In this document: positions 5,034-54,221 of the stretch, one piece after another
Position numbering within the stretch: the first letter of the stretch is position 1
Layout of the letters: every line of letters begins with the position of its first letter
Virus record (IMG/VR): IMGVR_UViG_3300045988_143165
Location: 3,410-67,409 of that record
DNA length: 64,000 bases
Source of the DNA: a virus
Reading direction: 5' to 3' (one strand)
The notes under the pieces: model-generated
The model's input: the letters and a program-made list of their open reading frames with translations, nothing else
Databases searched by the model: none
Told to the model about the DNA's origin: nothing
Made by a program: the position numbers and the translations under genes

Positions 5034-5629
5034 TATTCTGCCTCCTTATCTTCTGTTACTTCTTCATCATTGTTATCGGAATCGAACATACCATCAAATA
5101 TATCGGTAAACCTATTTCCGCCACCAAGCAACATAAATGGAAGCATTGAAGCCATACCATTATCACCCATTGTTCCGCCATTGCTGCCCTTCATCATTTC
5201 AGACATCATCATATAGGACATCATTTTGCCCATACCTTTTTTACCCTTCATCAAGTCGTTTCCGAACATTGAAACAATCTTGCCGTAAAAATATGTATTA
5301 CCCATAAAAACGTGGCGTTCTGGAAGAATGTCCTTAACAGTTGAATCCTCATAATCAATGACCTTAATTGTATCATTATTTACTGCAATAACACACTTTG
5401 GCTTGCCTGATACAAGAATAATGTCGCCAGCTTCAACTTTATTAGTAGGAATTACAAAGAAAAATTCCTCACCAAGATTGAAAACGAAGTTATTGCAATT
5501 TGTAAGTCTATTTTTCTTGATATTATAAGTCTTATAACCATCACTTGTCTTTACGGCAACCTCACCGTTCATTGAAAGTCTGCACATTCCGTTGGCTACT
5601 TTGCCAAACATACCATTGAACATATTCAT
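5033..5629 (-). CDS. hypothetical Gly/Met-rich protein
   Basis: ORF with a Gly/Met-rich low-complexity C-terminus. Confidence 0.4.
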   Translation of the reverse strand: MNMFNGMFGKVANGMCRLSMNGEVAVKTSDGYKTYNIKKNRLTNCNNFVFNLGEEFFFVIPTNKVEAGDIILVSGKPKCVIAVNNDTIKVIDYEDSTVKDILPERHVFMGNTYFYGKIVSMFGNDLMKGKKGMGKMMSYMMMSEMMKGSNGGTMGDNGMASMLPFMLLGGGNRFTDIFDGMFDSDNNDEEVTEDKEAE

Positions 5630-6420: not shown

Positions 6421-6987
6421 TTAATCTCCGAAAAGATTTGTTGGTGCATCTTCCGATACATCATAATTTAAGTATGAATATTCAATTACCTCATAGCCGA
6501 GCATATCAAGAATATTACTGTTCGGAAATTGCCTTACATACTGATTATAAGATTTAACAAACTTATTAAAATTACTTCGATAATTTGCAATCAAATTTTC
6601 TGTGGTTGTAAGTTCCGACATCAATTCTTTGTAGTTTTCATTGCTCTTTAATTCTGGATAAGCCTCTGCAACTGCGTTAATCATAGTCTGAATCTCATTC
6701 ACAGAATTATCAGACGATGTGCCTCTTGCTTCAACGACAGCCATTAGGGTTTCATATTCGTGCTTATCATACTGTTTAACACAATCAACAAGGTTAGGTA
6801 TAAGGTCTGCTCTGCGCTTTTCCTGAACCTTAATGTCAGACTGCGCCGTACTGATTTGTTCCTCATAAGAAATCGCCTTGTTTTTAACGCCATTGAAACC
6901 GAATACAAACATCATCGAAACAGCAACAATAATAGCAAGAATAATTGCTGCTAATTTCAAACTAAATTTACCTTTTTCTTTAGCCAT
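6421..6987 (-). CDS. lemA: LemA family protein
   Basis: RRADLIPNLVDCVKQY ... AVAEAYPELKSNENY ... TENLIANYRSNFN pattern of LemA. RBS GGGAGGattaaaaATG at MAKEKGK (the track starts at an upstream TTG). Confidence 0.7.
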   Translation of the reverse strand: MAKEKGKFSLKLAAIILAIIVAVSMMFVFGFNGVKNKAISYEEQISTAQSDIKVQEKRRADLIPNLVDCVKQYDKHEYETLMAVVEARGTSSDNSVNEIQTMINAVAEAYPELKSNENYKELMSELTTTENLIANYRSNFNKFVKSYNQYVRQFPNSNILDMLGYEVIEYSYLNYDVSEDAPTNLFGD

Positions 6988-7005: not shown

Positions 7006-7398
7006 TTAATCAATGTATGGCAATTCTCTATATATATCAGCAGGAATGTTATTCTGCCATATATAATCATTTTTAAGAATATAATTGTTATATGTATTTG
7101 CTGTCTTATTAGCCCTCATCTTTGCTTGTTCAGCCCAATTTTGTTTTTCTTCATCATCAGAATCTTTATATTGCTCATAAATGAGTTTATCTGAATTATA
7201 AGAAGAAATCATAGAACGACAAGTATCTTCAACCCTTTTTAATGTTTCATAGTTGGTATCATCATCTGCTTTTTGAACTGTACCAAACCAATTATTCCAA
7301 GCTGAAACACCACTTGGAGTTGCAGTAAAATATATAGGCAATCCGATAATAAGAATACAAACCAAAACTATCAATGCTGCAATTACCGATTTACGCAT
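7006..7398 (-). CDS. membrane protein, hypothetical
   Basis: N-terminal TM helix. Directly follows LemA. Confidence 0.4.
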   Translation of the reverse strand: MRKSVIAALIVLVCILIIGLPIYFTATPSGVSAWNNWFGTVQKADDDTNYETLKRVEDTCRSMISSYNSDKLIYEQYKDSDDEEKQNWAEQAKMRANKTANTYNNYILKNDYIWQNNIPADIYRELPYID

Positions 7399-9615: not shown

Positions 9616-10551
9616 TTATGTATCTCCTTGTTTGACATACTTTTTATAATTACAACATACATTTTCAAAAAATCTTTCCCAATCACCATTGCTCAAATCG
9701 TATTGTGATATTGAGTGTTTAATACAAAAATCACTATTTGAAAATGCTTTAATCATATTTTGAATTGGTGGTTGTCTATCTCGGCGTATTACCTGACCTA
9801 AATTTCGGAATACAATCCACGCTTCATTTCGTAATATGATTTCGCCCCAACAATCTGAATAACAAAACTTTTCTTTGTTACTTAAATCAATGCCAAAATA
9901 CTTTTTGGCACGATATACCAAGGGTGTTCCATTGTCACTTGGGTCAGATGGTCTATGTAAGGGTGAAAAGAAATCCCTGTGTTTAATCCAAAGGTCATCA
10001 CCTTTTACAACACATTGACACTTGCACTTGTTTAGAATCCAATCCGCTGAAAAACTTTGCTTTACTCCTTTTAATTCTGCTGGTTTTGATAATTTTGGCT
10101 GACCGTAAAATCTATATGAAACCACTTCGCAAAAAAGCGGTGCTGTAAAAAATAATTCGTAAACTTCGGCAGGATTAGAATAAGTAAATGTTATAGGATA
10201 AACTAAACTATCGTTTGACATAAACTGATATTCAACAATGTCATAATACAAATCATCAGCATTGTCTTTATATAGCCTAAATCGTAACATACCATCTTGT
10301 AATTGATACTTATACCATTCTCTTGTTCTATTTTGAGGAATTTTGTGTATTACTAAAAGTTCAGATTTGCTTTTTAACTCTTGAATAGTATCAAGATAGG
10401 ACATATCTGTATATGGTTGAATATCTGTAACATTTTCAGAGCTAAAAACCTGTCTTGCTTTTTCAGCAGTTTCAGCATAAATTAAAGGTTTTGCATTAAA
10501 TTCCTCTATTGTTAAAATCCAGCGTTTCATAGTTTGTAATAATGACTCCAT
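9616..10551 (-). CDS. hypothetical protein
   Basis: 311-aa ORF. No motif recognised. Confidence 0.4.
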   Translation of the reverse strand: MESLLQTMKRWILTIEEFNAKPLIYAETAEKARQVFSSENVTDIQPYTDMSYLDTIQELKSKSELLVIHKIPQNRTREWYKYQLQDGMLRFRLYKDNADDLYYDIVEYQFMSNDSLVYPITFTYSNPAEVYELFFTAPLFCEVVSYRFYGQPKLSKPAELKGVKQSFSADWILNKCKCQCVVKGDDLWIKHRDFFSPLHRPSDPSDNGTPLVYRAKKYFGIDLSNKEKFCYSDCWGEIILRNEAWIVFRNLGQVIRRDRQPPIQNMIKAFSNSDFCIKHSISQYDLSNGDWERFFENVCCNYKKYVKQGDT

Positions 10552-22909: not shown

Positions 22910-23353
22910 TCAATGATATAATTGATATTTTTTACTTATGTAATGAGCCATATCATCTTTAAGAGGACAAAACCAAATTCCAGTTAGTGTTGTTCCGTTT
23001 TCTTCTGGTGTAAGCTCGGTAAGACAAGCATCATAAATTAAACCATAATGAACATTCTCTATCAGCCCAAGTTCTTGTGCAATCTTGACCGCTTTAAGTA
23101 AATGATTTTTATTCCTTGCTTCACAAATGGTTTTTGTAAATGAACCATTTAGATATTGTTCAAATATTTCTTTATCGATTATTCCTTTAATTTCATATCC
23201 GGCATAATCATCCAAAGGTTTCGCATAATTCCTTAATCCACGAGTCCAATATGCTTCGGCACAATGAGATACTTGGGCTGCAAGTTTGCCGGGAGACATA
23301 TTCAAATCTTTTCGCATTATGAATAATCTTCTCATTAAAATAGCTCCCACCAA
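22910..23353 (-). CDS. PTH2-family peptidyl-tRNA hydrolase-like protein
   Basis: RKDLNMSPGKLAAQVSHCA matches the PTH2 signature (DLxMxxGKxxAQxxHA). Confidence 0.5.
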   Translation of the reverse strand: MVGAILMRRLFIMRKDLNMSPGKLAAQVSHCAEAYWTRGLRNYAKPLDDYAGYEIKGIIDKEIFEQYLNGSFTKTICEARNKNHLLKAVKIAQELGLIENVHYGLIYDACLTELTPEENGTTLTGIWFCPLKDDMAHYISKKYQLYH

Positions 23354-23583
23354 TAATCAAAAATTCTCTTATAATCACAATGTCTCATATCGCCTTTATA
23401 TTTGCGTGCTTTCTTGCTTGATATTTTTTTAAGATACTTTTTATATTTCCTGCCACCACAAGAATATTTTATATATCTTCTTTTTTTCTCGTCATACCAA
23501 GCACCAGCACCATATGAATTCTTGGTTTCATTATAAAGTTTTTTAAGTCTGTGATTTCTTTCCTGACTTCTGCGATAACTCAT
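23335..23583 (-). CDS. small basic protein
   Basis: ORF rich in K/R/Y. Confidence 0.3.
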   Translation of the reverse strand: MSYRRSQERNHRLKKLYNETKNSYGAGAWYDEKKRRYIKYSCGGRKYKKYLKKISSKKARKYKGDMRHCDYKRIFDYWWELF

Positions 23584-24394
23584 ATTGCCCTCCCAAGTAT
23601 ATTAAATCATTGACATACTTTCGACCATCTTCCTTAAAAATAGGAGTTTCATTATCAATAATCCATTTACTTCTCCCTGTTGTTTCATCAATCTTACGAA
23701 TACAACAACTACCTCTCTTGTATTTCGTAGGACAATTATTCCAGTTGACACCTTTTTCGAGCATAAGCATATCCTGAATATCGCTTATAGATTTTTTATC
23801 TAACTGCTTATGAGAAAAATATGCTCTACCAACCATCTGAATAGAATTTCTGGTTGCATCATTCTGTCTCCAAAGCAAATTATTGCAAACCTCATCTTTT
23901 GGAATATTAAATACACGGGCATCAAACATTGCCCCTTTATCTATTGCTCTATTAAGTACCTCAATATATTCTGATTCGGGTGGAATATCTATATCTTGAA
24001 GTTCTAAAACCGAATTTATATAATCATTGGCTCTTTTATTGAAAAATTTATTAAAAGCCATTGTTGCCATACTGGCTGCAACGCTCGCACATTTTTGGAT
24101 ATTATAATCAAACCAAGCAGAAGTATCTATATTTCTGTAATCAACAAGAACAAGAGTAATCTCATCGGATTGTGTATATCCAAGAACGCAACCCTGAATA
24201 TTCTCACAAAGATACTTCATTGTCTCCTGCATAGTTTTAGAAAGCACATCATCAAAAGGTTTTTGAAAACCTCTTGTGAATGTATGAAATGCTTTACCGT
24301 CAATTCGTATAATAACTGGGGTTCGAGTTGTCAAATAGTGTCTCGACACAAATTCATACTTTTTCATTCTTTTATCAAATGCACTGTATTTCAT
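23543..24394 (-). CDS. Thg1-like protein (tRNA-His guanylyltransferase family, 3'-5' nucleotidyltransferase)
   Basis: N-terminal KYEFVSRHYL...VIIRIDGKAFHTFT matches the Thg1 family (FEYVR...RLDGRNFH). Confidence 0.65.
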   Translation of the reverse strand: MKYSAFDKRMKKYEFVSRHYLTTRTPVIIRIDGKAFHTFTRGFQKPFDDVLSKTMQETMKYLCENIQGCVLGYTQSDEITLVLVDYRNIDTSAWFDYNIQKCASVAASMATMAFNKFFNKRANDYINSVLELQDIDIPPESEYIEVLNRAIDKGAMFDARVFNIPKDEVCNNLLWRQNDATRNSIQMVGRAYFSHKQLDKKSISDIQDMLMLEKGVNWNNCPTKYKRGSCCIRKIDETTGRSKWIIDNETPIFKEDGRKYVNDLIYLGGQYELSQKSGKKSQT

Positions 24395-24904: not shown

Positions 24905-24960
24905 ATATTGGCTGTTTTTGAAAGTGTCAGCCACACTTAACAACGAAATAGGATTATCTA

Positions 24961-25054
24961 TGGCTCATATAGGATTTGAACCTATGTCTCCGGCAGTGTG
25001 CCTGATTTACACTACATACCTCCGCCAGTGTCTTAACCACTTGACCAATGAACC
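24961..25054 (-). tRNA. atypical 94-nt tRNA-like gene (anticodon arm irregular or with an insertion)
   Basis: Good acceptor (GGTTCAT/ATGAGCC), D-arm (GTC-AAGTGGTTAA-GAC) and T-arm (ATAGG-TTCAAAT-CCTAT). Between D-arm and T-arm there are 39 nt with a 5-bp stem (CTGGC/GCCGG) enclosing 29 nt that include a 6-bp hairpin with a 9-nt loop. Confidence 0.4.
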
Positions 25055-26536: not shown

Positions 26537-26774
26537 ATATGTATATGGCAAAGACCTTTATCTATCTAACTTTGCCCCTGTTAAACAGGTTTTAATCAGA
26601 CAAAAAAATACTCTTAATTTATCTTATGAAATACACAAAAACATAGAAAGGAAAGAGAGAGGTGAAAAATTCTGATTAGGTTTTGTAGTTATCGTATTTT
26701 GTTTTGCTCAATAATGTTTCTTAATGCTGGAAATTTCGGTCTCTTTGATTTTAGGGCTGCTGCCTTACCTCTTG

Positions 26775-26830
26775 GCGACTACCAACAATGTAGATAGGTG
26801 GGAATCGAACCCACGATTAGCAGCTTGATA
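26775..26830 (-). ncRNA. tRNA 3'-half-like cargo (T-arm plus 3' acceptor-like strand) inside structured-RNA unit (a)
   Basis: GTGGG-TTCGATT-CCCAC T-arm followed by CTATCTA. No matching 5' half was found downstream. Confidence 0.35.
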
Positions 26831-26969
26831 TTATGTATTTGAAGAAGGATGAAACCTTTCAGCCAGCTTATATTCAGAAATTTGAGGTTCTTATAATATA
26901 TAGATTAAAAGTCTATTCCTAATAGGTAGAAGGATGAATCTCAACAGCCGAATATTTATTTAACTTACA

Positions 26970-27035
26970 TTAGATATTATAGCACACATTTTACTATTTG
27001 TCAAGTGTTTTTCTCAATATTATTTCTAATTATTT
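26970..27035 (-). promoter_or_regulatory. consensus sigma-A-type promoter with conserved upstream element (P1)
   Basis: Minus sense: TTAGAAATAATATTGAGAAAAACAC, TTGACA, 17 nt, TATAAT. Confidence 0.55.
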
Positions 27036-27200
27036 GAAATTTATTCGATGCGGTAATTTTAACATCTAATAATACTATTGCACTACCAACTGTGCTACAT
27101 CCCATCTTCGATGGAATGGTGGGAGTCGAACCCACGACACATAGTTCCTTGATATATAGAAGGATGATGTTGGTCAGCCGCATATTTTGTATTGTGGAAA
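27030..27200 (-). ncRNA. Y-RNA-like structured RNA carrying a permuted tRNA-like module (unit c)
   Basis: Order on the minus strand: helix 1, internal loop, helix 2, AUCCUUCUA loop, ACTAT, variable GTGTC, T-arm GTGGG-TTCGACT-CCCAC, CATTCCA, loop TCGAAGA, TGGGATG, TA, D-arm GCAC-AGTTGGTA-GTGC, A, ATAGT, 7 nt, helix 2', loop, helix 1'. Acceptor-like strands pair 7/7 (one G-U) and anticodon-like strands 5/5, but the acceptor is capped by a loop. Confidence 0.55.
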
Positions 27201-27476
27201 TTTGTTTCTCTAAAATCTTAATCCCAAATCAAGTGCCTATTGGCGTAGAAGGATGAAAAACAATAGCCACATAATATTTAGAAAGAAGTGTGGGAATTTA
27301 ATGCTCTTTTTAGAAGAATTTGCAGTTCTTGATATTATGTAGAAGGATGAGCATTACAGCCACAAATTATGAATAGTGGAAATCGAACTTTCTATCTTAT
27401 CATCATTATGTAGGTGGCTTAACCACCGAAATTATTTTCTTGTAGAAGGAAGAAAGCCCATAGCCACAAAATACTT

Positions 27477-30052: not shown

Positions 30053-30128
30053 TTGGGTGGAAGTAAAGGAATTGAACCTTTTCTTGCAGTGTCACAAACT
30101 GCCGTGCTTACCGTTACACTAACAACCA
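30053..30128 (-). tRNA. tRNA-His (anticodon GTG) with encoded G-1
   Basis: Anticodon stem GCAGT/ACTGC, loop TTGTGAC, extra 5' G opposite discriminator C, two U-U pairs in the acceptor stem, CCA encoded. Confidence 0.7.
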
Positions 30129-34992: not shown

Positions 34993-35760
34993 CTAATTTG
35001 AATGATATTCAAAGCACGGCATTAACTGTAACTTGAACATATTTTTTTCGTGCATTTCGTTAATTTTTGCCTTTACTTTTTCGTCATCACATATTCCAGT
35101 TCTTATATACTTATCAAGAACTGCATAGGTGAAGCCAAAACTATCTTCATCTGTCTTTCCACAAAGTCCATCTGTCGGAGTTTTGTGTGCAAGCTCATTA
35201 GGTAAGCCACAATCCTCTGCTATGGCAATTACTTCTGTTTTTGTAAGCATTGCAAGAGGACTAAAATCTCCTGCTGCATCACCGTATCGTGTAGAATAAC
35301 CGATATAATCTTCCGAAAGATTGCAGGTATTCATTACTCTGCCATTCATTGATTGAGATACAGCATATAATGTAGCCATTCTCAAACGAGCAGGAAGATT
35401 GATTTTAGTCTGTTCTGAAATATCAATAGGATAATAACCGTCAAAATTTGGGTCATAGTAATCATCAATATTACAGATTATTCCATTGTATGCTTGTTCA
35501 ATATTAACCTCTGTATATTTGATACCAAGATGTGAAACCAACTTAATAGCAGAATCAATATCTTTCTGCACGCCATTTGGCATAAGCACACCAAATACCC
35601 TGTCTTTCCCAAGTGCTTCAACGCACAAAGCAGCAACCGTGCTTGAGTCTATGCCACCTGAAATTCCGATAATAGCATTACAGTCTTTTCCATTTTTTTT
35701 AAATATATCTCTTATCCATTCAACAACATCATTTTTGACTTTTATTACATCAAATGTCAT
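34993..35760 (-). CDS. nadE: NH3-dependent NAD+ synthetase
   Basis: PP-loop GISGGIDSS. About 255 aa, typical NadE size. Distal part of the NAD+ salvage gene set. Confidence 0.8.
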   Translation of the reverse strand: MTFDVIKVKNDVVEWIRDIFKKNGKDCNAIIGISGGIDSSTVAALCVEALGKDRVFGVLMPNGVQKDIDSAIKLVSHLGIKYTEVNIEQAYNGIICNIDDYYDPNFDGYYPIDISEQTKINLPARLRMATLYAVSQSMNGRVMNTCNLSEDYIGYSTRYGDAAGDFSPLAMLTKTEVIAIAEDCGLPNELAHKTPTDGLCGKTDEDSFGFTYAVLDKYIRTGICDDEKVKAKINEMHEKNMFKLQLMPCFEYHSN

Positions 35761-37220
35761 TAGAACTTACCTCCGTGCAATGTATTTCTTACTTCCGAAA
35801 GAGAGTATTCTTTTATCATCTTACCATCACTGAATATAGGCTGGAGCATATTATTCTCGTTATACGCCTCTGCCCAGGTATGACCATCTGTAAATGTGAG
35901 GTCTGAATTTACAATACAACAACCTTTTTGTGATTTCTTAAATCCACCGTCTTTTGGATTCTTAAAAATCGGCACAGATTTTCCGTTAATCTCACAATAT
36001 GTTGCTTTAATGCAAGAACTAAAGGTATCACGGGTAAAAGGCTTTAGAATACCATCTTCCTCAATGCACTGGAATGAGAAAGAACCAACTCCAAGCGCAA
36101 CGTTTGAGCAAGCAAAACCATTCTGCATAAGGATTTCATAGATTTGCTCACATCTCTGTACCGTAATACTATCACCATAAATAGCCTTAACGTGTGGGTC
36201 AAGTACTTTATATCCCTTGCTGTTTACTGTTCCGCCAAAAATATCCCACAGTTTGAATACTGTCCTTGTAACAACCTCAACACAATCACCGGAATCTCCA
36301 CGCATAAGCATACAACCATTGTGTGACATAATTTCAGGTTTTAATTCAGGAAGAACATTATCAATTATGTTCCAGTAATCATATGAATCAAGCACAGCGG
36401 AAAACGAATTATTGGGATAAATTTCCGCTAAAAGTCTGCGAAGAAGCGTAATTTCATCACCATCGACTGCATAATTACTACACATAACTGAATGCTCTGT
36501 GCTGGGTGAACCAAATGCCACAGGTTCTTTTGTGCAATCGCAATTATACATTGCCTCAAGATAGGGAACTGTCGGAACGGTTGCAGTATTCAAAAATGAC
36601 ATACACCAACCTGCACCAGCTTTAATTGCTGATTCTGTGCATTCCTCGCCTCTGAAATCAAATGCTCCGAGTGCTTTTGACTTTGGAACATCATCATCAC
36701 AAGTCAGGTCGTAATATTTATTTACAATCTGACGATATGTATATCCGACTGTTGCAGCCAACATAGGATGCCAGCTTTCAGCAGAAATAAGGCTTTCAAG
36801 AGCTTGTGGAAGCCAAGCGAAATCAGAATGTGTATTTGTAATTCCAAACATCGGAACGTGCATCGGTACAAGTGTTCCTTCAGGAAGTGCCACAATCTTA
36901 ATCGGAAGATAGCCGAGTTTGTGAAGTTCTTCAATCTTCTTAATACCGTAAACATTCTCTCCAAGAGAAGCATCCATAATTCTCTTATAATTTGCGATAA
37001 CCTCGTCAAAAGGTTTATTGAAAAATTCTTCGTTGAAATAATCAATAAGGTATGTTTTTATAAAACCCTGCAACCCAAACATAACAACCTTATCCCATCT
37101 CTTAACTCTCGTCATTCTCGGAGTAAAATAAGATACTGATTTTGTGATTCCTTTGGGCAACATTTCTGCGTGTACTGCCTTATAAAAATCAATAAGCAAC
37201 ATAGGATTTATCTTTCTCAT
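35760..37220 (-). CDS. nadV: nicotinamide phosphoribosyltransferase (NAMPT/NadV family)
   Basis: Aligns with human NAMPT along its length (IDFYKAVH/TDSYKVTH, LPIKIVALPEG, VLDSYDYWN/VSDSYDIYN, LMRGDSGD/IIRPDSGN, NSKGYKVL). RBS taaGGAGaattgaaATG at MRKINP. Confidence 0.85.
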   Translation of the reverse strand: MRKINPMLLIDFYKAVHAEMLPKGITKSVSYFTPRMTRVKRWDKVVMFGLQGFIKTYLIDYFNEEFFNKPFDEVIANYKRIMDASLGENVYGIKKIEELHKLGYLPIKIVALPEGTLVPMHVPMFGITNTHSDFAWLPQALESLISAESWHPMLAATVGYTYRQIVNKYYDLTCDDDVPKSKALGAFDFRGEECTESAIKAGAGWCMSFLNTATVPTVPYLEAMYNCDCTKEPVAFGSPSTEHSVMCSNYAVDGDEITLLRRLLAEIYPNNSFSAVLDSYDYWNIIDNVLPELKPEIMSHNGCMLMRGDSGDCVEVVTRTVFKLWDIFGGTVNSKGYKVLDPHVKAIYGDSITVQRCEQIYEILMQNGFACSNVALGVGSFSFQCIEEDGILKPFTRDTFSSCIKATYCEINGKSVPIFKNPKDGGFKKSQKGCCIVNSDLTFTDGHTWAEAYNENNMLQPIFSDGKMIKEYSLSEVRNTLHGGKF

Positions 37221-37231
37221 TTCAATTCTCC

Positions 37232-38368
37232 TTATACTGCATAATGAATGTTCTTGGTAGGACATCTTGAAAAACTCAAATATTCAACCTCTGTTGACCT
37301 TGCACAATCAACAACCTCTTTACAATCATCATCCTGTGAATATTTGATTTGAATATTTTCAGGACTAATACAATAGAGAAGTTTTTCAACATTATATTCT
37401 GCATCCGATACATTGAAATCAACTCTTACAAAATCATTACCTTTCTTATCTTCAAGCCATAAATAATCTTCATAATCTCCGAACATATCCAAACCGTAGT
37501 TTTTGTGCTGTGCTGTGAGTCCATTCTTATAATGAAGAACAATATTATATCTTAAATAATTATTAAGATTTACAATGTTCAAATCTTTAATAGCTTCCTT
37601 AAATGAAATTCCTGTGTTAATTTCAAATGCGATAGCTCTTAAACAGTCATAATTCAAATTTACTTTTCTTGAAAAAGCGATAATAGAATCAATCTCACCG
37701 TAATACTGTTCATCAAGTTTATCAATAAGATATTCCCGAACTTCCGTTGGTGTCGGATAATCAAATCTGAAATGATAATGAAATCTTCCCGGTCTGTTTA
37801 TTAGATAATTGTTTAACTTACCGAGGTCATTACAAGTAATAACAAACAATTTTTTGCCACCAGAAACACCATCAAATAAGCTCAAAAGATTTGCCTGTGG
37901 AGAAGCCTCTCCATCTCCTGCCTTTACTTCTCCAAATGTCTTATCGAACTCATCAAACAAAACCATAACCTCTTGGTCAATGCTTTCAATATATGATGCA
38001 ATGCCAGGAATATACCTATCTACAACAATAAGTGGAATATCTTTCTTCTGTGCTTCAATAGATAATAGCCTTGCAAATAAAGATTTGCCAATACCCTTAT
38101 CTCCACTTAAAATAACGCCAAGATTTCTGTTAAATTTGTCAAATGAGTTCAAAACCTTATTTACTTTTTCGATATGTACTCCGTAAACTTTATCTTCTTT
38201 TACTTCAATATCGACATACTTTTCAAGATAAAATCCCTTAAATTGACTAAATCTCACAACATAACTTTGTGTTGGAAATTTTTCATATGTTTTTAATGTA
38301 TCATCAAAAACCTCATATGAATTTCCAGAACTAATAACCTTCACTTTATTTTTCCCCCTAATCAACAT
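37232..38368 (-). CDS. AAA+ ATPase
   Basis: Walker A GDKGIGKS, Walker B VLFDEFD, sensor ITCN, RPGRF arginine-finger region. Embedded between nadV and prs. Confidence 0.6.
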   Translation of the reverse strand: MLIRGKNKVKVISSGNSYEVFDDTLKTYEKFPTQSYVVRFSQFKGFYLEKYVDIEVKEDKVYGVHIEKVNKVLNSFDKFNRNLGVILSGDKGIGKSLFARLLSIEAQKKDIPLIVVDRYIPGIASYIESIDQEVMVLFDEFDKTFGEVKAGDGEASPQANLLSLFDGVSGGKKLFVITCNDLGKLNNYLINRPGRFHYHFRFDYPTPTEVREYLIDKLDEQYYGEIDSIIAFSRKVNLNYDCLRAIAFEINTGISFKEAIKDLNIVNLNNYLRYNIVLHYKNGLTAQHKNYGLDMFGDYEDYLWLEDKKGNDFVRVDFNVSDAEYNVEKLLYCISPENIQIKYSQDDDCKEVVDCARSTEVEYLSFSRCPTKNIHYAV

Positions 38369-39261
38369 AAAATTAACTGGTCAATGCCCGAAAGCAATTC
38401 GGACAATTCTCTTGCAATTTCTGCTTGATATTCAAATACCTGTATCTTATCTGATAAGCCAAGAGAATTTGCATACTCTTTAACTTTATCAGTAAAAATA
38501 CTATTAGTAGTAAATACCTTTTTAATCAAACCACTTTTGAAAATTTCTCCATCAAAGATAGTTTTCTCGCAATGTGATATGTAAAGATATACATTCTTTG
38601 CACCGAGTTCTTTTAATTTCTTTGCTGAAAAATAGAATGTACCACCTCGGCTACTGATGTCATCAACAATGATAATATTGCTGTCATTGATTAAATCTTT
38701 TGCACCTGAAACATCAAGTCCTTCGATTTTTCCTGTTTCCCAATTACGCTTTTTAATTCCAAAAGCATAAGGCATATCGAGCATACCGGAATATCTTTTC
38801 ATTGCTCCTTCGTCTGGATAAAAAGCAATAAGAGGTTCATCATTGATTTCGTTTTTAATTTCCTTTATTACCTTTTCGATATAAGGTTTAGGGCTTTCAA
38901 CTTCGATATTGTTAATTAGAGCCTCACTGACAGATGAATGTGGGTCAAGAACAACAACCTTATCAAAATTAAGATTATTGATAAACTCTGCAAAATACTT
39001 TAATGTAAATACATCATTTTCGCTCTTTACCCTATCCTGTCTGGCATTTGGAATGTAAGGCATAACAAGATTTACTTTGTTAGCTCCAATTCTCCTTACG
39101 TGATTTGCAAGGAACATTATGGCAATCATTTCCTCATTGCTTTCAAAATGCCAACAAATAGTAACTGTATGATTGAAAATAAATTCAACATTAGGATTGA
39201 GTCTTAATGTTTCATCGGGAAACTTATTTATTGTTATTTTTTTTCCGTTAATTAAAATCAT
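38362..39261 (-). CDS. prs: ribose-phosphate pyrophosphokinase family (PRPP synthetase, or an ADP-ribose pyrophosphokinase Adps-like enzyme)
   Basis: MPYIPNARQDR (compare PYFGYARQDR) and IIVDDISSRGGT (PRPP-binding loop). Confidence 0.75.
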   Translation of the reverse strand: MILINGKKITINKFPDETLRLNPNVEFIFNHTVTICWHFESNEEMIAIMFLANHVRRIGANKVNLVMPYIPNARQDRVKSENDVFTLKYFAEFINNLNFDKVVVLDPHSSVSEALINNIEVESPKPYIEKVIKEIKNEINDEPLIAFYPDEGAMKRYSGMLDMPYAFGIKKRNWETGKIEGLDVSGAKDLINDSNIIIVDDISSRGGTFYFSAKKLKELGAKNVYLYISHCEKTIFDGEIFKSGLIKKVFTTNSIFTDKVKEYANSLGLSDKIQVFEYQAEIARELSELLSGIDQLILC

Positions 39262-39263
39262 AA

Positions 39264-39791
39264 TTATTCTCCTATAATATCAATCTGACACATCTTCATA
39301 GTAAGAAGTGCTGCCTTATGGCTTTCAGGTGTAACACCGGCACAGCAAGATACATCAACTGCAATGTGAATTTCTGGATAATTCGCTTTCAATAAAAGCG
39401 CATTGGAAACCACACATATATCTGTGCAAAGTCCGACCAATTCGATATATTCAATATTTTCTCCACAAATAAGTTCGGGAAGTGCCGTACTTCCAAATGT
39501 TCTTTTCTGCACATACAATATACTATCTTTACTTTCAAATAGAGCTTTTTGAACCCTCGTATTGATTCTATGACCATAGGTATTTTTAATACAATGCTCT
39601 ACCGGTAAACACTTACCTTCATTCGTATTCAAATAATCATCGCTGTGGGTATCAAGTGTAGCGATAATATCACCATCCCAATTATTGATTTTTTCAATGA
39701 CATTAGGAATAATTGCGACAGCTTCCGGAGTTCCAAGAGAGCCGTCAACAAAATCATTCTGCATATCGACTACAATCAAAAGTTTTTTCAT
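39264..39791 (-). CDS. pncA: nicotinamidase / isochorismatase-family hydrolase
   Basis: VVDMQNDF N-terminus, metal-site LDTHSDDY..PVEHCIKNTYGH and catalytic Cys in LVGLCTDICV, matching the PncA signature. Confidence 0.7.
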   Translation of the reverse strand: MKKLLIVVDMQNDFVDGSLGTPEAVAIIPNVIEKINNWDGDIIATLDTHSDDYLNTNEGKCLPVEHCIKNTYGHRINTRVQKALFESKDSILYVQKRTFGSTALPELICGENIEYIELVGLCTDICVVSNALLLKANYPEIHIAVDVSCCAGVTPESHKAALLTMKMCQIDIIGE

Positions 39792-54045: not shown

Positions 54046-54221
54046 AGTAATTTTTCCTCTCTAATTTAATTATTAGAGCGTATAAGAAAATCCCATCGTC
54101 ACCGATAGGATTTGATAATCAATTTTCCTATCGGTCAAGCATTAGCACCTTACCTGTTGGCAGGTTGCTGTGCGGTCATAGGGCTTGCTCCCTCACACAC
54201 TCTTAATAGGGTATTTTTATT

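What the first reader, a model, noticed from the sequence alone, without database searches (positions are those of the whole stretch)
24961..25054. 94-nt tRNA-like gene with canonical acceptor, D- and T-arms but a 39-nt irregular anticodon region
It sits between tRNA-Met and tRNA-Leu with a 2-nt spacer and has a 7-bp acceptor stem (one G-U), D-arm and T-arm. The anticodon region has a 5-bp stem (CTGGC/GCCGG) enclosing 29 nt that include a 6-bp hairpin with a 9-nt loop (AAATCAGGC). It also contains near-duplicate 9-mers CTGGCGGAG / CTGCCGGAG. It could be a tRNA with a short intron-like insertion, an expanded-anticodon-loop tRNA, or another decaying duplicate like the permuted modules.
Basis: seen in the sequence. 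Interest (0 to 1): 0.5.

Follow-up and report, generated by a model that had tools for sequence, protein, structure and literature searches.

The report
Phage tRNA-Glu look-alike without anticodon loop

Summary
Window 24961..25054 (minus strand) is a 94-nt cloverleaf (Rfam tRNA 51.5 bits against a cut-off of 29). It has a normal acceptor stem, D-arm, 4-nt variable loop and T-arm, but 29 nt sit where the 7-nt anticodon loop should be.

It is not a lone oddity. Pattern scans recovered 16 distinct relatives in IMG/VR phage contigs and human-gut metagenome contigs, with four unrelated acceptor stems. Covariation supports the fold: 11 pairs carry changes on both sides, and no shuffle reached this.

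The body matches Firmicutes-type tRNA-Glu. Across the four types the insert is better conserved than the acceptor stem (0.65 vs 0.35 identity; 0.97 vs 0.14 between two types).

No single excision gives a loop with U33, there is no bulge-helix-bulge motif, and the insert is far too short for a group I intron. The ARAGORN call "tRNA-Pro(AGG)" is an artefact.

Best reading: a non-decoding tRNA-Glu mimic, co-transcribed and processed with its tRNA neighbours. Its arm is a specialised module, and a decoy or competitor role in tRNA-centred phage-host conflict is inferred only. The window copy is the most divergent member, with an apical loop 4 nt shorter. Function is untested.

The parts
24961..25054 (-). 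Whole tRNA-like gene X (94 nt), with no encoded CCA
   Evidence: ARAGORN. Rfam RF00005 gives 51.5 bits with a 29-nt insertion at the anticodon loop. The family model R1 gives 89.6 bits.
25048..25054 (-). Acceptor stem, 5' strand GGUUCAU (tRNA positions 1-7)
   Evidence: Pairs with 24962..24968. Six of the 7 acceptor pairs show changes on both sides across the family.
25030..25045 (-). D-arm GUCAAGUGGUUAAGAC (positions 10-25), of the tRNA-Glu type
   Evidence: Identical or nearly so to the D-arms of Clostridium and Bacillus tRNA-Glu, phage tRNA-Glu(CUC) in L108 and phage G tRNA-other.
25022..25028 (-). Anticodon-arm outer stem, 5' strand CUGGCGG (positions 27-33): the 5 canonical pairs plus a 2-pair extension
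   Evidence: Pairs with 24990..24996. Three of the 7 pairs carry compensatory changes; G33-C is invariant and 32-60 is G.U, A-U or G-C.
24995..25023 (-). The 29-nt insert (positions 32-60) that replaces the 7-nt anticodon loop
   Evidence: Rfam alignment shows '*[29]*'. It is homologous to the 34-36-nt inserts of the relatives.
25013..25021 (-). 5' bulge AGGUAUGUA (positions 34-42); A34 lies opposite A58
   Evidence: Alignment A4. The relatives carry A-NN-CAGAAUA or CAGUAUG here.
24998..25012 (-). Inner hairpin: GUG stem, apical loop UAAAUCAGG, CAC stem (positions 43-57)
   Evidence: The inner helix is 100% paired across the family, with one covarying pair. The loop is 9 nt here and 13 nt (UAAACAUUAAAAG or UAAGCAUGAAAAG) in the relatives.
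24990..24996 (-). Anticodon-arm outer stem, 3' strand CUGCCGG (positions 59-65)
24986..24989 (-). 4-nt variable loop AGAC (position 47 absent), a tRNA-Glu hallmark
   Evidence: The same AGAC occurs in Clostridium sp. CAG:793 tRNA-Glu(UUC).
24969..24985 (-). T-arm AUAGG-UUCAAAU-CCUAU (positions 70-86)
24961..24968 (-). Acceptor stem 3' strand AUGAGCC plus discriminator A; UAG follows, so there is no CCA
   Evidence: The neighbouring Met and Leu genes do encode CCA.

Best explanation
X is a non-decoding tRNA mimic derived from a Firmicutes-type tRNA-Glu. It belongs to a conserved family of phage tRNA-like RNAs.

Shown:
- It keeps a full cloverleaf: a 7-bp acceptor stem, a tRNA-Glu-type D-arm, a 4-nt variable loop and a T-arm with G18/G19 and TPsiC elements.
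- The 7-nt anticodon loop is replaced by a structured module. The anticodon stem is lengthened to 7 bp, followed by an A.A mismatch, an 8-10-nt bulge on the 5' side, a 3-4-bp helix and a 9-13-nt apical loop.
- Among relatives the acceptor stem changes freely but stays paired. The D-arm, T-arm and insert stay similar.

Inferred:
- X is co-transcribed with tRNA-Leu and tRNA-Met.
- RNase P and RNase Z release it like a tRNA.
- The host enzyme adds CCA.
- It accumulates as a stable L-shaped RNA of about 97 nt whose over-long arm keeps it out of ribosomal decoding.

Most speculative step: the tRNA-Glu core lets it occupy a protein that recognises tRNA-Glu by its body, for example a tRNA-targeting immune nuclease or toxin, or a tRNA-Glu-handling enzyme. 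The substituted arm would make it uncleavable or inert, or would supply an extra binding surface. On this reading it acts as a decoy or competitor in the tRNA-centred conflict that the neighbouring genes (PTH2, Thg1-like, DUF488, tRNA array) also serve.

The window copy is a shortened, divergent variant of the family module.
For: Cloverleaf:
- Rfam tRNA 51.5 bits with a 29-nt insertion at the loop.

Family:
- Relatives were found by gapped-pattern and loop-motif scans in IMG/VR and in human-gut metagenome contigs. They give 16 distinct sequences and four unrelated acceptor stems: GGUUCAU, GGGAUAG, GUAUGGU and GCUGUGU.
- Rfam scores a relative in the same way, at 49 bits with a 36-nt insertion.

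Covariation on the 14 sequences aligned (alignment A4):
- 98.9% of cells are paired.
- 11 pairs carry changes on both sides, which 1 of 500 shuffles reached; the other four measures were reached by 0 of 500.
- Slid controls give 31-49% pairing.
- One relative, L103, appears to have gained extra G-C pairing in the extended stem, by eye, on a partial sequence.

Conservation:
- Mean identity among the four types is 0.35 for the acceptor, 0.92 for the D-arm, 0.88 for the T-arm and 0.65 for the insert interior.
- Types ii and iii share 0.97 of the insert but only 0.14 of the acceptor.

Body is tRNA-Glu:
- Closest normal tRNAs are phage tRNA-Glu.
- Phage tRNA-Glu(CUC) in L108 has the same first 25 nt as the L001 copy of X; the window copy differs at position 16.
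- Clostridium sp. CAG:793 and Bacillus tRNA-Glu share the D-arm and A26, and the Clostridium tRNA-Glu also the AGAC variable loop.

Not decoding:
- Position 33 is G in all members, so no excision yields U33 (direct reading of alignment A4).
- No anticodon is conserved in register.
- The phages use the standard genetic code.

Expression and context:
- X starts 2 nt after Leu-CCA, and no minus-strand terminator lies between Leu, X and Met.
- Neighbouring genes include PTH2, a Thg1-like enzyme, DUF488-N3a, a phosphoesterase and NAD-salvage enzymes.
Against: - No expression, processing, CCA-addition or binding data exist. Everything after 'it folds like this and is conserved' is inference.
- The D-arm and T-loop constancy is partly built in, because the scans required those motifs. 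Only the loop-motif scan was free of that constraint, and it mostly re-found the same set.
- The family rests on four independent lineages, so the number of covariation events is small.
- No protein is shared next to the gene across lineages, so no partner is indicated.
- The window copy lacks 4 nt of the conserved apical loop, including the AAAAG stretch. It also lacks the weak bulge-loop pairing seen in the others, so it may have lost the family's function.
- Its only close relatives are nearly identical throughout the region, so selection on X itself cannot be measured.
Confidence: 0.5

Rival explanations
1. X is an intron-containing tRNA. The 29-36-nt insert would be removed by an undescribed bacterial or phage pathway, for example an endonuclease plus an RNA ligase, to give a working tRNA, perhaps the tRNA-Glu that this phage otherwise seems to lack.
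For: - The insert sits exactly where tRNA introns sit.
- The window encodes tRNA-Lys and tRNA-Gln but no ordinary tRNA-Glu, whereas relatives L002, L005 and L006 have one.
- tRNA-repair-type genes lie nearby.
- L002 carries four more tRNA-like genes with 34-63-nt inserts at the same site.
Against: - G33 is invariant, so every single-excision product lacks U33 (alignment A4).
- No UUC or CUC triplet lies in the window copy's insert, and none lies in a usable register in any member.
- There is no bulge-helix-bulge motif.
- The insert is too short for group I or II introns, and there is no Rfam intron or ribozyme hit.
- Sequence conservation of the insert (0.97 between types ii and iii) is unlike protein-spliced introns, which conserve only the splice-site structure.
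- No splicing endonuclease or RNA ligase was seen among the 30 window ORFs scanned.
Confidence: 0.12
2. The window copy is a decaying relic. The family module may be functional elsewhere, but X has lost part of it through a 4-nt loop deletion and an altered bulge, and persists only because it sits inside a tRNA operon.
For: - X is the most divergent member: insert identity to the other types is 0.50-0.57, against 0.69-0.97 among them.
- It lacks the conserved CAU-N-AAAAG loop segment and the candidate 3-bp bulge-loop pairing.
- The same window holds permuted tRNA-like fragments.
Against: - All helices remain intact in X. Its C31-G61 pair is actually better than in its nearest type (iv), which has a C.A mismatch there.
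- The conserved features are kept: the G.U and G-C extension, the A.A mismatch, the GUG/CAC helix and the GUAAA loop start.
- The same sequence, apart from one D-loop transition, recurs in at least 3 separately assembled contigs.
Confidence: 0.18
3. X is a class II tRNA-Pro(AGG), or tRNA-Thr(GGU) with a 2-nt intron, carrying a long variable arm, as ARAGORN draws it.
For: ARAGORN output.
Against: - ARAGORN's anticodon stem has only three acceptable pairs plus G.G and C.U, and its loop is GGAGGUA with G33.
- Switching the intron option changes the call to Thr(GGU).
- ARAGORN fails to call any of the relatives.
- Covariation supports the CUGGC/GCCGG stem instead.
Confidence: 0.02
4. X is an RNP scaffold of the Y-RNA kind. 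The tRNA-like body recruits tRNA-processing or decay enzymes, and the extended arm binds a Ro/Rsr-like or other phage protein. On this view X is a non-permuted counterpart of the YrlA-like modules 2 kb away.
For: - Two permuted tRNA-like cores with sub-threshold YrlA matches lie at 27076..27143 and 26758..26822.
- From established knowledge, YrlA also pairs a tRNA mimic with a helix grown from the anticodon-stem position.
Against: - Rfam YrlA does not match X at E <= 10.
- X is not permuted.
- No TROVE/Rsr-like protein was found among the ORFs scanned. The adjacent 749-aa ORF has no Pfam or PDB sequence match.
- The arm is short, with 10-11 pairs.
Confidence: 0.08

Closest known systems
Bacterial (Firmicutes) tRNA-Glu(UUC/CUC) and phage-encoded tRNA-Glu
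   Same: - Same D-arm (U8 G9 GUCAAGYGGUUAAGAC) and A26.
- Same 4-nt variable loop AGAC and a similar T-arm.
- Same discriminator A as the phage tRNA-Glu genes.
   Different: - The anticodon loop YUUUCAC is absent and replaced by 29-36 structured nucleotides.
- The acceptor stem is not conserved.
- No CCA is encoded.
Bacillus phage G 'tRNA-other (tta)' (NC_023719, 411932..412006)
   Same: - Almost the same body as X: identical 5' acceptor strand GGUUCAU, a near-identical D-arm and the same T-stem (AUAGG/CCUAU).
- No encoded CCA.
- A non-canonical anticodon loop.
- It is the best non-family hit of model R1, at 52.6 bits.
   Different: It has a normal-length arm (5 bp plus the 7-nt loop CCUUACG), so it could still decode, and it has no insert.
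YrlA / bacterial Y RNA-like RNAs (Rfam RF02553)
   Same: Both are tRNA mimics in which the helix at the anticodon-stem position is extended and the anticodon loop is missing. Both occur in phages, and YrlA-like cores lie in the same window.
   Different: - YrlA is circularly permuted: its acceptor is closed by a loop and its ends lie at the long stem. It carries an Rsr-binding stem.
- X has normal tRNA topology and a short capped arm.
- There is no Rfam YrlA match at X.
Intron-containing tRNAs: archaeal/eukaryal bulge-helix-bulge introns and bacterial group I introns
   Same: Extra nucleotides lie in the anticodon-loop region of an otherwise normal cloverleaf.
   Different: - No bulge-helix-bulge motif.
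- No valid loop results from excision.
- The insert is conserved in sequence.
- It is about ten times shorter than group I introns.
tmRNA tRNA-like domain, and the phage T4 stable RNAs (species 1 and 2) encoded in its tRNA cluster (the T4 RNAs from memory)
   Same: These are phage or bacterial RNAs with tRNA-like ends, encoded among tRNA genes, that do not decode by an anticodon.
   Different: - tmRNA lacks a D-stem, has G3.U70 and carries an ORF.
- X has a complete cloverleaf core, no G3.U70 and no conserved ORF.
- The function of the T4 RNAs is also unknown.

Membership tests
Canonical decoding tRNA | Cloverleaf with 7-bp acceptor stem, D-arm and T-arm | tested here: met
   Rfam RF00005 51.5 bits, full-length alignment.
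Canonical decoding tRNA | 5-bp anticodon stem closed by a 7-nt loop with U33 and an anticodon at positions 34-36 | tested here: not met
   There are 29 nt between the stem strands. Positions 32-33 are GG in the window copy, and G33 is invariant across the family.
Canonical decoding tRNA | 3' CCA end and aminoacylation | not testable with these tools
   CCA is not encoded: UAG follows the discriminator A. Post-transcriptional addition is possible.
tRNA with a protein-spliced (bulge-helix-bulge) intron | Two 3-nt bulges flanking a 4-bp helix, with excision restoring a canonical loop | tested here: not met
   The bulges are 8-10 nt on the 5' side and 1 nt on the 3' side. Every single-excision product lacks U33.
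tRNA with a group I intron (bacterial type) | Intron of roughly 200 nt or more with a P1-P9 core | tested here: not met
   The insert is 29 nt. There is no Intron_gpI hit even at E <= 10.
Class II tRNA (long variable arm), as in the ARAGORN call | Regular anticodon arm plus a base-paired variable arm | tested here: not met
   ARAGORN's anticodon stem has 3 good pairs. Its call flips between Pro and Thr with the options used. Covariation supports the alternative stem.
YrlA / Y RNA-like | Permuted tRNA-like core plus an Rsr-binding stem, with an rsr gene nearby | tested here: not met
   There is no RF02553 hit at X, and X is not permuted. No TROVE domain was found in the ORFs scanned.
tmRNA | tRNA-like domain with G3.U70, no D-stem, and a tag ORF | tested here: not met
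   X has U3.G70 and a complete D-arm. An AUG is not conserved in the insert. The only tmRNA-type hit is 14 bits.
Phage tRNA-Glu-like RNAs with the anticodon loop replaced (family defined here, model R1) | tRNA-Glu-type D-arm, 4-nt variable loop, no encoded CCA, and a 7-bp extended anticodon stem ending R-G-A...A-C-Y | tested here: met
   Alignment A4. R1 scores X at 89.6 bits, though X was in the training set.
Phage tRNA-Glu-like RNAs with the anticodon loop replaced (family defined here, model R1) | Inner module: CAG-WAU-R bulge, 3-4-bp helix, and a 13-nt loop GUAARCAUKAAAAGC | tested here: inconclusive
   X keeps the helix and the GUAAA start. Its bulge is GGUAUGUA, and its loop is 9 nt and lacks CAU-K-AAAA.

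The most novel reading that the evidence does not exclude
Phages of gut Firmicutes carry a dedicated 'dead' tRNA-Glu: an L-shaped mimic that keeps the tRNA-Glu core recognised by a host factor but has the cleavable or decodable anticodon loop swapped for a rigid, conserved hairpin module. It would act as an RNA inhibitor or decoy of a tRNA-targeting immune nuclease or toxin, or of a tRNA-Glu-dependent enzyme. That would make it an RNA-based anti-defence element hidden among ordinary tRNA genes. Together with the other insert-bearing tRNA-likes seen in related phages (L002, L068 type), it could mark a broader, unannotated class of phage 'anticodon-replaced' tRNA mimics.
Probability: 0.2. Interest if true: 0.8.

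Novelty: new variant of a known kind. Interest (0 to 1): 0.55.

Why it matters
Phage tRNA genes are usually explained as codon-usage helpers or as replacements for host tRNAs destroyed by immune nucleases. This family does neither in any obvious way. It keeps the tRNA-Glu body and discards the decoding loop in a conserved manner, which points to a job done by molecular mimicry.

If that job is to block a tRNA-directed defence or enzyme, it would add an RNA class to the phage counter-defence repertoire and give a handle for finding the host factor.

There is also a practical point. ARAGORN misses every relative, and Rfam files them silently as 'tRNA'. Such genes are therefore being either mis-annotated as odd isoacceptors (here 'tRNA-Pro AGG') or overlooked in phage genomes.

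Tried and rejected
1. ARAGORN with intron options gives inconsistent Pro(AGG) and Thr(GGU) models with poor stems. Rejected.

2. Homology to the tRNA-Pro(UGG) that occupies a nearby slot in related phages L002, L003 and L006: no similarity.

3. Exact 17-mer of the insert against IMG/VR: only the same phage plus chance coding hits.

4. Measuring selection against the closest relative L001: the whole region, spacers included, is about 99% identical, so this is uninformative.

5. Stop-codon recoding or a suppressor role: coding density is normal under the standard code in all loci.

6. A shared neighbouring protein across lineages: none was found. A DUF6275 protein is shared by the window and type ii loci only, and at different distances.

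7. Apical loop as an antisense 'kiss' to a tRNA anticodon loop. The type ii loop has a 9-nt complement to tRNA-Lys(UUU), but 13 of 500 shuffles do as well. Type iv and X show nothing above shuffles. Not supported for X.

8. Bulge-loop pseudoknot: three invariant pairs plus two varying ones, resting on two lineages, and absent in X. Weak.

9. A small ORF in the insert (AUG...UAA in type ii; GGAGG-U-AUG-UAG in X): the AUG is not conserved, since type iii has AAG. Rejected.

10. K-turn, loop E, CsrA GGA and TGT UGU motifs, checked by eye: none is conserved across the types.

11. Rsr/Ro partner: the 749-aa ORF next to the YrlA-like modules has no Pfam or PDB sequence match.

12. Bacterial genomes: the strict family pattern gives 0 hits in 185,579 GTDB species representatives. 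The loose pattern returns mostly ordinary class II tRNAs or tandem tRNAs, plus one rumen contig with a different 50-nt insert.

13. Literature searches found no description of tRNA-likes with an extended anticodon arm in phages.

Full report
**1. What is at the coordinates**

On the minus strand, window 24961..25054 reads GGUUCAUUGGUCAAGUGGUUAAGACACUGGCGGAGGUAUGUAGUGUAAAUCAGGCACACUGCCGGAGACAUAGGUUCAAAUCCUAUAUGAGCCA.

- It starts 2 nt after the encoded CCA of tRNA-Leu(CAA). It ends 56 nt before tRNA-Met(CAU).
- Rfam's tRNA model aligns end to end at 51.5 bits (threshold 29, E 3.9e-8). The acceptor stem, D-arm, anticodon stem CUGGC/GCCGG, 4-nt variable loop and T-arm are all in place, and 29 nt stand where the 7-nt loop belongs.
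- No CCA is encoded, although the Met and Leu neighbours do encode it.
The exceptions are that the inner hairpin has at most 5 pairs, and that a different register is favoured by comparison with relatives (section 3).

ARAGORN labels the gene tRNA-Pro(AGG). The drawing shows why this is unreliable. It forces a 5-position 'anticodon stem' with only three acceptable pairs and a GGAGGUA loop, and it treats the rest as a variable arm. With the intron option it changes to Thr(GGU) with a 2-nt intron.

**2. Setting**

- The window is phage DNA. All genes lie on one strand and GC is about 34%.
- There are 13 tRNA-type genes, counting X.
- Next to the array sit a Thg1-like enzyme, PTH2, DUF488-N3a and a phosphoesterase.
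- Further along lie an NAD-dependent DNA ligase and an NAD-salvage set.
- A scan of IMG/VR with the Thg1-like protein gave 56 related loci.
- Only one, L001 (91% identical Thg1), carries X. It differs by a single D-loop transition. The whole region is nearly identical there, spacers included, so it says nothing about selection.
- Relatives at about 70% identity (L002, L003, L006) have Leu(CAA), Met, Pro(UGG) and then Thg1, with no X. Their Pro(UGG) is unrelated to X.
- No minus-strand terminator separates Leu, X and Met. X is therefore most simply part of the tRNA transcript.

**3. A family, not a one-off**

A gapped DNA pattern (tRNA-Glu-like D-arm, 33-60 nt, T-loop) was scanned over IMG/VR, followed by a looser version, a loop-motif pattern and one metagenome scan. 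These recovered the same architecture in other phage contigs and in human-gut assemblies (sequences).

There are 16 distinct sequences in four lineages, defined by unrelated acceptor stems:

| Type | Acceptor 5' strand | Where |
|---|---|---|
| X type | GGUUCAU | window, L001/L057, L093, L096 |
| ii | GGGAUAG or GAGAUAG | twelve contigs |
| iii | GUAUGGU | L069 |
| iv | GCUGUGU | L079, L094, L095 |

- GC content of the host contigs ranges from 33% to 49%.
- The window shares almost no proteins with the loci of the other types, and types iii and iv share none with any other type.
- Rfam scores a type ii member as tRNA at 49 bits with a 36-nt insertion. ARAGORN calls none of the relatives.

On the 14 sequences aligned (A4), the proposed structure is the cloverleaf, an anticodon stem extended to 7 bp, and an inner 3-4-bp helix.

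- 98.9% of cells are paired.
- 11 pairs carry changes on both sides: 6 of 7 acceptor pairs, 3 anticodon-stem pairs, 1 inner-helix pair and 1 T-stem pair.
- One of 500 column shuffles reached that count. No shuffle reached any of the other four measures.
- Slid controls drop to 31-49% pairing.
- One extra member, L103, appears to have gained extra G-C pairing in the extended stem. This is by eye, on a partial sequence.

The common arm has these parts:

- five canonical pairs;
- R32-Y and G33-C;
- A34 opposite an invariant A;
- an 8-10-nt 5' bulge (A-NN-CAGAAUA or CAGUAUG);
- a short helix;
- an apical loop G-UAARCAUKAAAAG-C.

X aligns best with type iv, sharing the 5' CUGGCGGAG and the 3' GCACACU. 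Its loop is 4 nt shorter (UAAAUCAGG) and its bulge differs.

**4. What the body is**

- Without the insert, X is closest to phage tRNA-Glu genes.
- A phage tRNA-Glu(CUC), L108, has the same first 25 nt as the L001 copy of X. The window copy differs at position 16.
- Clostridium sp. CAG:793 and Bacillus tRNA-Glu(UUC) have the same D-arm and A26. The Clostridium tRNA-Glu also has the AGAC variable loop.
- Bacillus phage G's annotated 'tRNA-other (tta)' has virtually the same acceptor, D-arm and T-stem as X, but a normal-length arm.

So the family is a tRNA-Glu derivative of the Firmicutes type. This fits the low GC content and the S-box riboswitch in the window.

**5. What is conserved**

| Region | Mean identity among the four types |
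|---|---|
| Acceptor | 0.35 |
| D-arm | 0.92 |
| T-arm | 0.88 |
| Extended stem | 0.71 |
| Insert interior | 0.65 |

- Types ii and iii share 0.97 of the insert interior but only 0.14 of the acceptor.
- The acceptor is free to change provided it stays paired, while the insert is held.
- Caveat: the D-arm and T-loop were part of most search patterns, so their constancy is partly ascertainment. The variable loop, T-stem, insert and acceptor were not constrained.

**6. Can it decode or be spliced?**

- G33 is invariant, so every product of a single excision has G or C at position 33 (read directly from A4).
- No triplet stays in register as an anticodon.
- No UUC or CUC triplet lies in the window copy's insert, and none lies in a usable register in any member.
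- The bulges (8-10 nt and 1 nt) are not a bulge-helix-bulge motif.
- 29-36 nt cannot be a group I intron, and Rfam finds no intron or ribozyme even at E <= 10.
- The phages use the standard code, so a hidden suppressor is not needed.
- An arm of about 11-13 stacked pairs, instead of 5, would put the apical loop well beyond the anticodon position. This is incompatible with the fixed anticodon-to-CCA distance used by the ribosome (established tRNA geometry).

I conclude that the RNA is a tRNA mimic, not a decoder.

**7. Mechanism**

Shown: the fold, the family, the tRNA-Glu ancestry and the conservation pattern.

Inferred:

- co-transcription with Leu and Met;
- 5' cutting by RNase P and 3' cutting by RNase Z (the normal route for tRNA genes lacking CCA in Firmicutes);
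- CCA addition;
- accumulation as a stable L-shaped RNA.

Speculative: because the tRNA-Glu core is retained while the acceptor identity pairs and the anticodon are discarded, the likeliest use is occupation of a factor that recognises tRNA-Glu by its body. The replaced loop would make the RNA inert or inhibitory. The genomic company (PTH2, Thg1-like, a tRNA array, NAD salvage) is what one expects of a counter-defence region, but no partner is indicated.

My confidence is high that X is a conserved non-decoding tRNA-Glu mimic. It is low, about 0.2-0.3, for the decoy role specifically.

**8. Rivals**

- A spliced tRNA, about 0.12. It is supported by the position of the insert, by the lack of an ordinary tRNA-Glu in the window, and by four further insert-bearing tRNA-likes in L002. 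Section 6 argues against it.
- X as a decaying copy of a functional family, about 0.18. X is the most divergent member and lacks the conserved loop segment. However, every helix is intact and the sequence recurs in at least three separately assembled contigs.
- A Y-RNA-like scaffold, about 0.08. Permuted YrlA-like cores lie 2 kb away, but X itself does not match YrlA, is not permuted, and no Ro-like protein was found.
- The ARAGORN class II reading, about 0.02.

**9. Comparison with known systems and novelty**

X works most like the known tRNA mimics: YrlA, the tmRNA tRNA-like domain, and the stable RNAs of the phage T4 tRNA cluster. It fails the defining features of each (see the membership table). 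It also fails the defining loop of a true tRNA.

I found no Rfam family other than RF00005 that matches it, and no paper describing phage tRNA-likes with an extended anticodon arm. A review of non-canonical tRNAs states that anticodon-arm length is closely conserved (PMC7609411).

I rate it a new variant of a known kind: a phage-encoded tRNA mimic. It is of moderate-to-good interest, and that interest is limited by the unknown function and by the window copy being an atypical member.

Noticed in passing
window 27076..27143 (-) and 26758..26822 (-): Two circularly permuted tRNA-like cores: T-arm, acceptor 3' strand, short loop, acceptor 5' strand, D-arm. Both give sub-threshold Rfam YrlA (Y RNA-like) matches of 35.9 and 21.9 bits against a threshold of 69, covering only the tRNA-like core of the model. 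No Ro/Rsr-like protein was identified nearby.
   Followed up: partly
window about 26860..27470 (-): Six copies of a repeated motif GGCU-N10-12-CAUCCUUCUAC (for example TGTGGCTGTAATGCTCATCCTTCTAC) are interleaved with the permuted tRNA-like modules. They could be a phage promoter or processing signal, or a repeat element.
   Followed up: no
window 24905..24960 (-); L002 9760..9800; L004 about 6820..6850; L006 about 9850..9890: The spacer upstream of tRNA-Met holds AAGUGU-GGCUG-ACACUU followed by CAAAAACAGCC. The GGNNG...AAAAAC-NNCC pairing is kept with different sequences in related phages, in L006 ahead of tRNA-Pro, which suggests a conserved pre-tRNA hairpin or signal.
   Followed up: partly
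L002 6506..6624, 6632..6757, 6765..6866, 7056..7184: A related phage carries four consecutive tRNA-like genes with 34-63-nt (or longer) insertions at the anticodon loop (Rfam tRNA 40-51 bits; all missed by ARAGORN). A repeated RCAGCAAY... motif occurs both inside the inserts and in the spacers between them.
   Followed up: partly
L068 4283..4382 (also L070, L074, L088); L169 (rumen contig ONIU01000296): These are further tRNA-Glu-like genes with different 36-50-nt replacements of the anticodon loop and no encoded CCA. They may belong to a wider class of anticodon-replaced tRNA mimics.
   Followed up: no
window 30054..30128 (-); the same in L001 3864..3938 and L002 4245..4318: The phage tRNA-His(GUG) genes have acceptor strands UGGUUGU/ACUUCCA, giving two adjacent U.U mismatches conserved across relatives, and discriminator C73. 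A Thg1-like 3'-5' nucleotidyltransferase gene lies close by (23543..24394).
   Followed up: no
L002 9700..9760; L006 9480..9540; L004 6765..6825: A conserved non-coding motif, CCGACAAAGGGC...GAGCAGAGCCUAUG...GGUGAUAACUCUAUUCC, lies in the tRNA region of related phages. It is absent from the window.
   Followed up: partly
L017 5137..5207; L039 3782..3852; L038 about 5130..5200: Odd 71-nt tRNA-like genes (ARAGORN 'tRNA-???', with a 2-nt anticodon). Their acceptor GGCUCAU/AUGAGCC resembles that of X, and no CCA is encoded. They occur in more distant Thg1-carrying phages.
   Followed up: no
L050 17035..17125; L051 17272..17362: A 91-nt tRNA-Cys(GCA) with a long, base-paired variable arm, which is unusual for tRNA-Cys.
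   Followed up: no
window 54125..54212 (-): A SAM (S-box) riboswitch at 58.7 bits inside a phage genome. This is consistent with a Firmicutes host.
   Followed up: no
window 34993..39791 (-) and 22910..23353 (-): An NAD-salvage set (NadE, NAMPT-like, PRPP synthetase-like, isochorismatase-family (nicotinamidase-type) protein) and a PTH2 peptidyl-tRNA hydrolase. Together these look like a counter-defence island around the tRNA array.
   Followed up: partly
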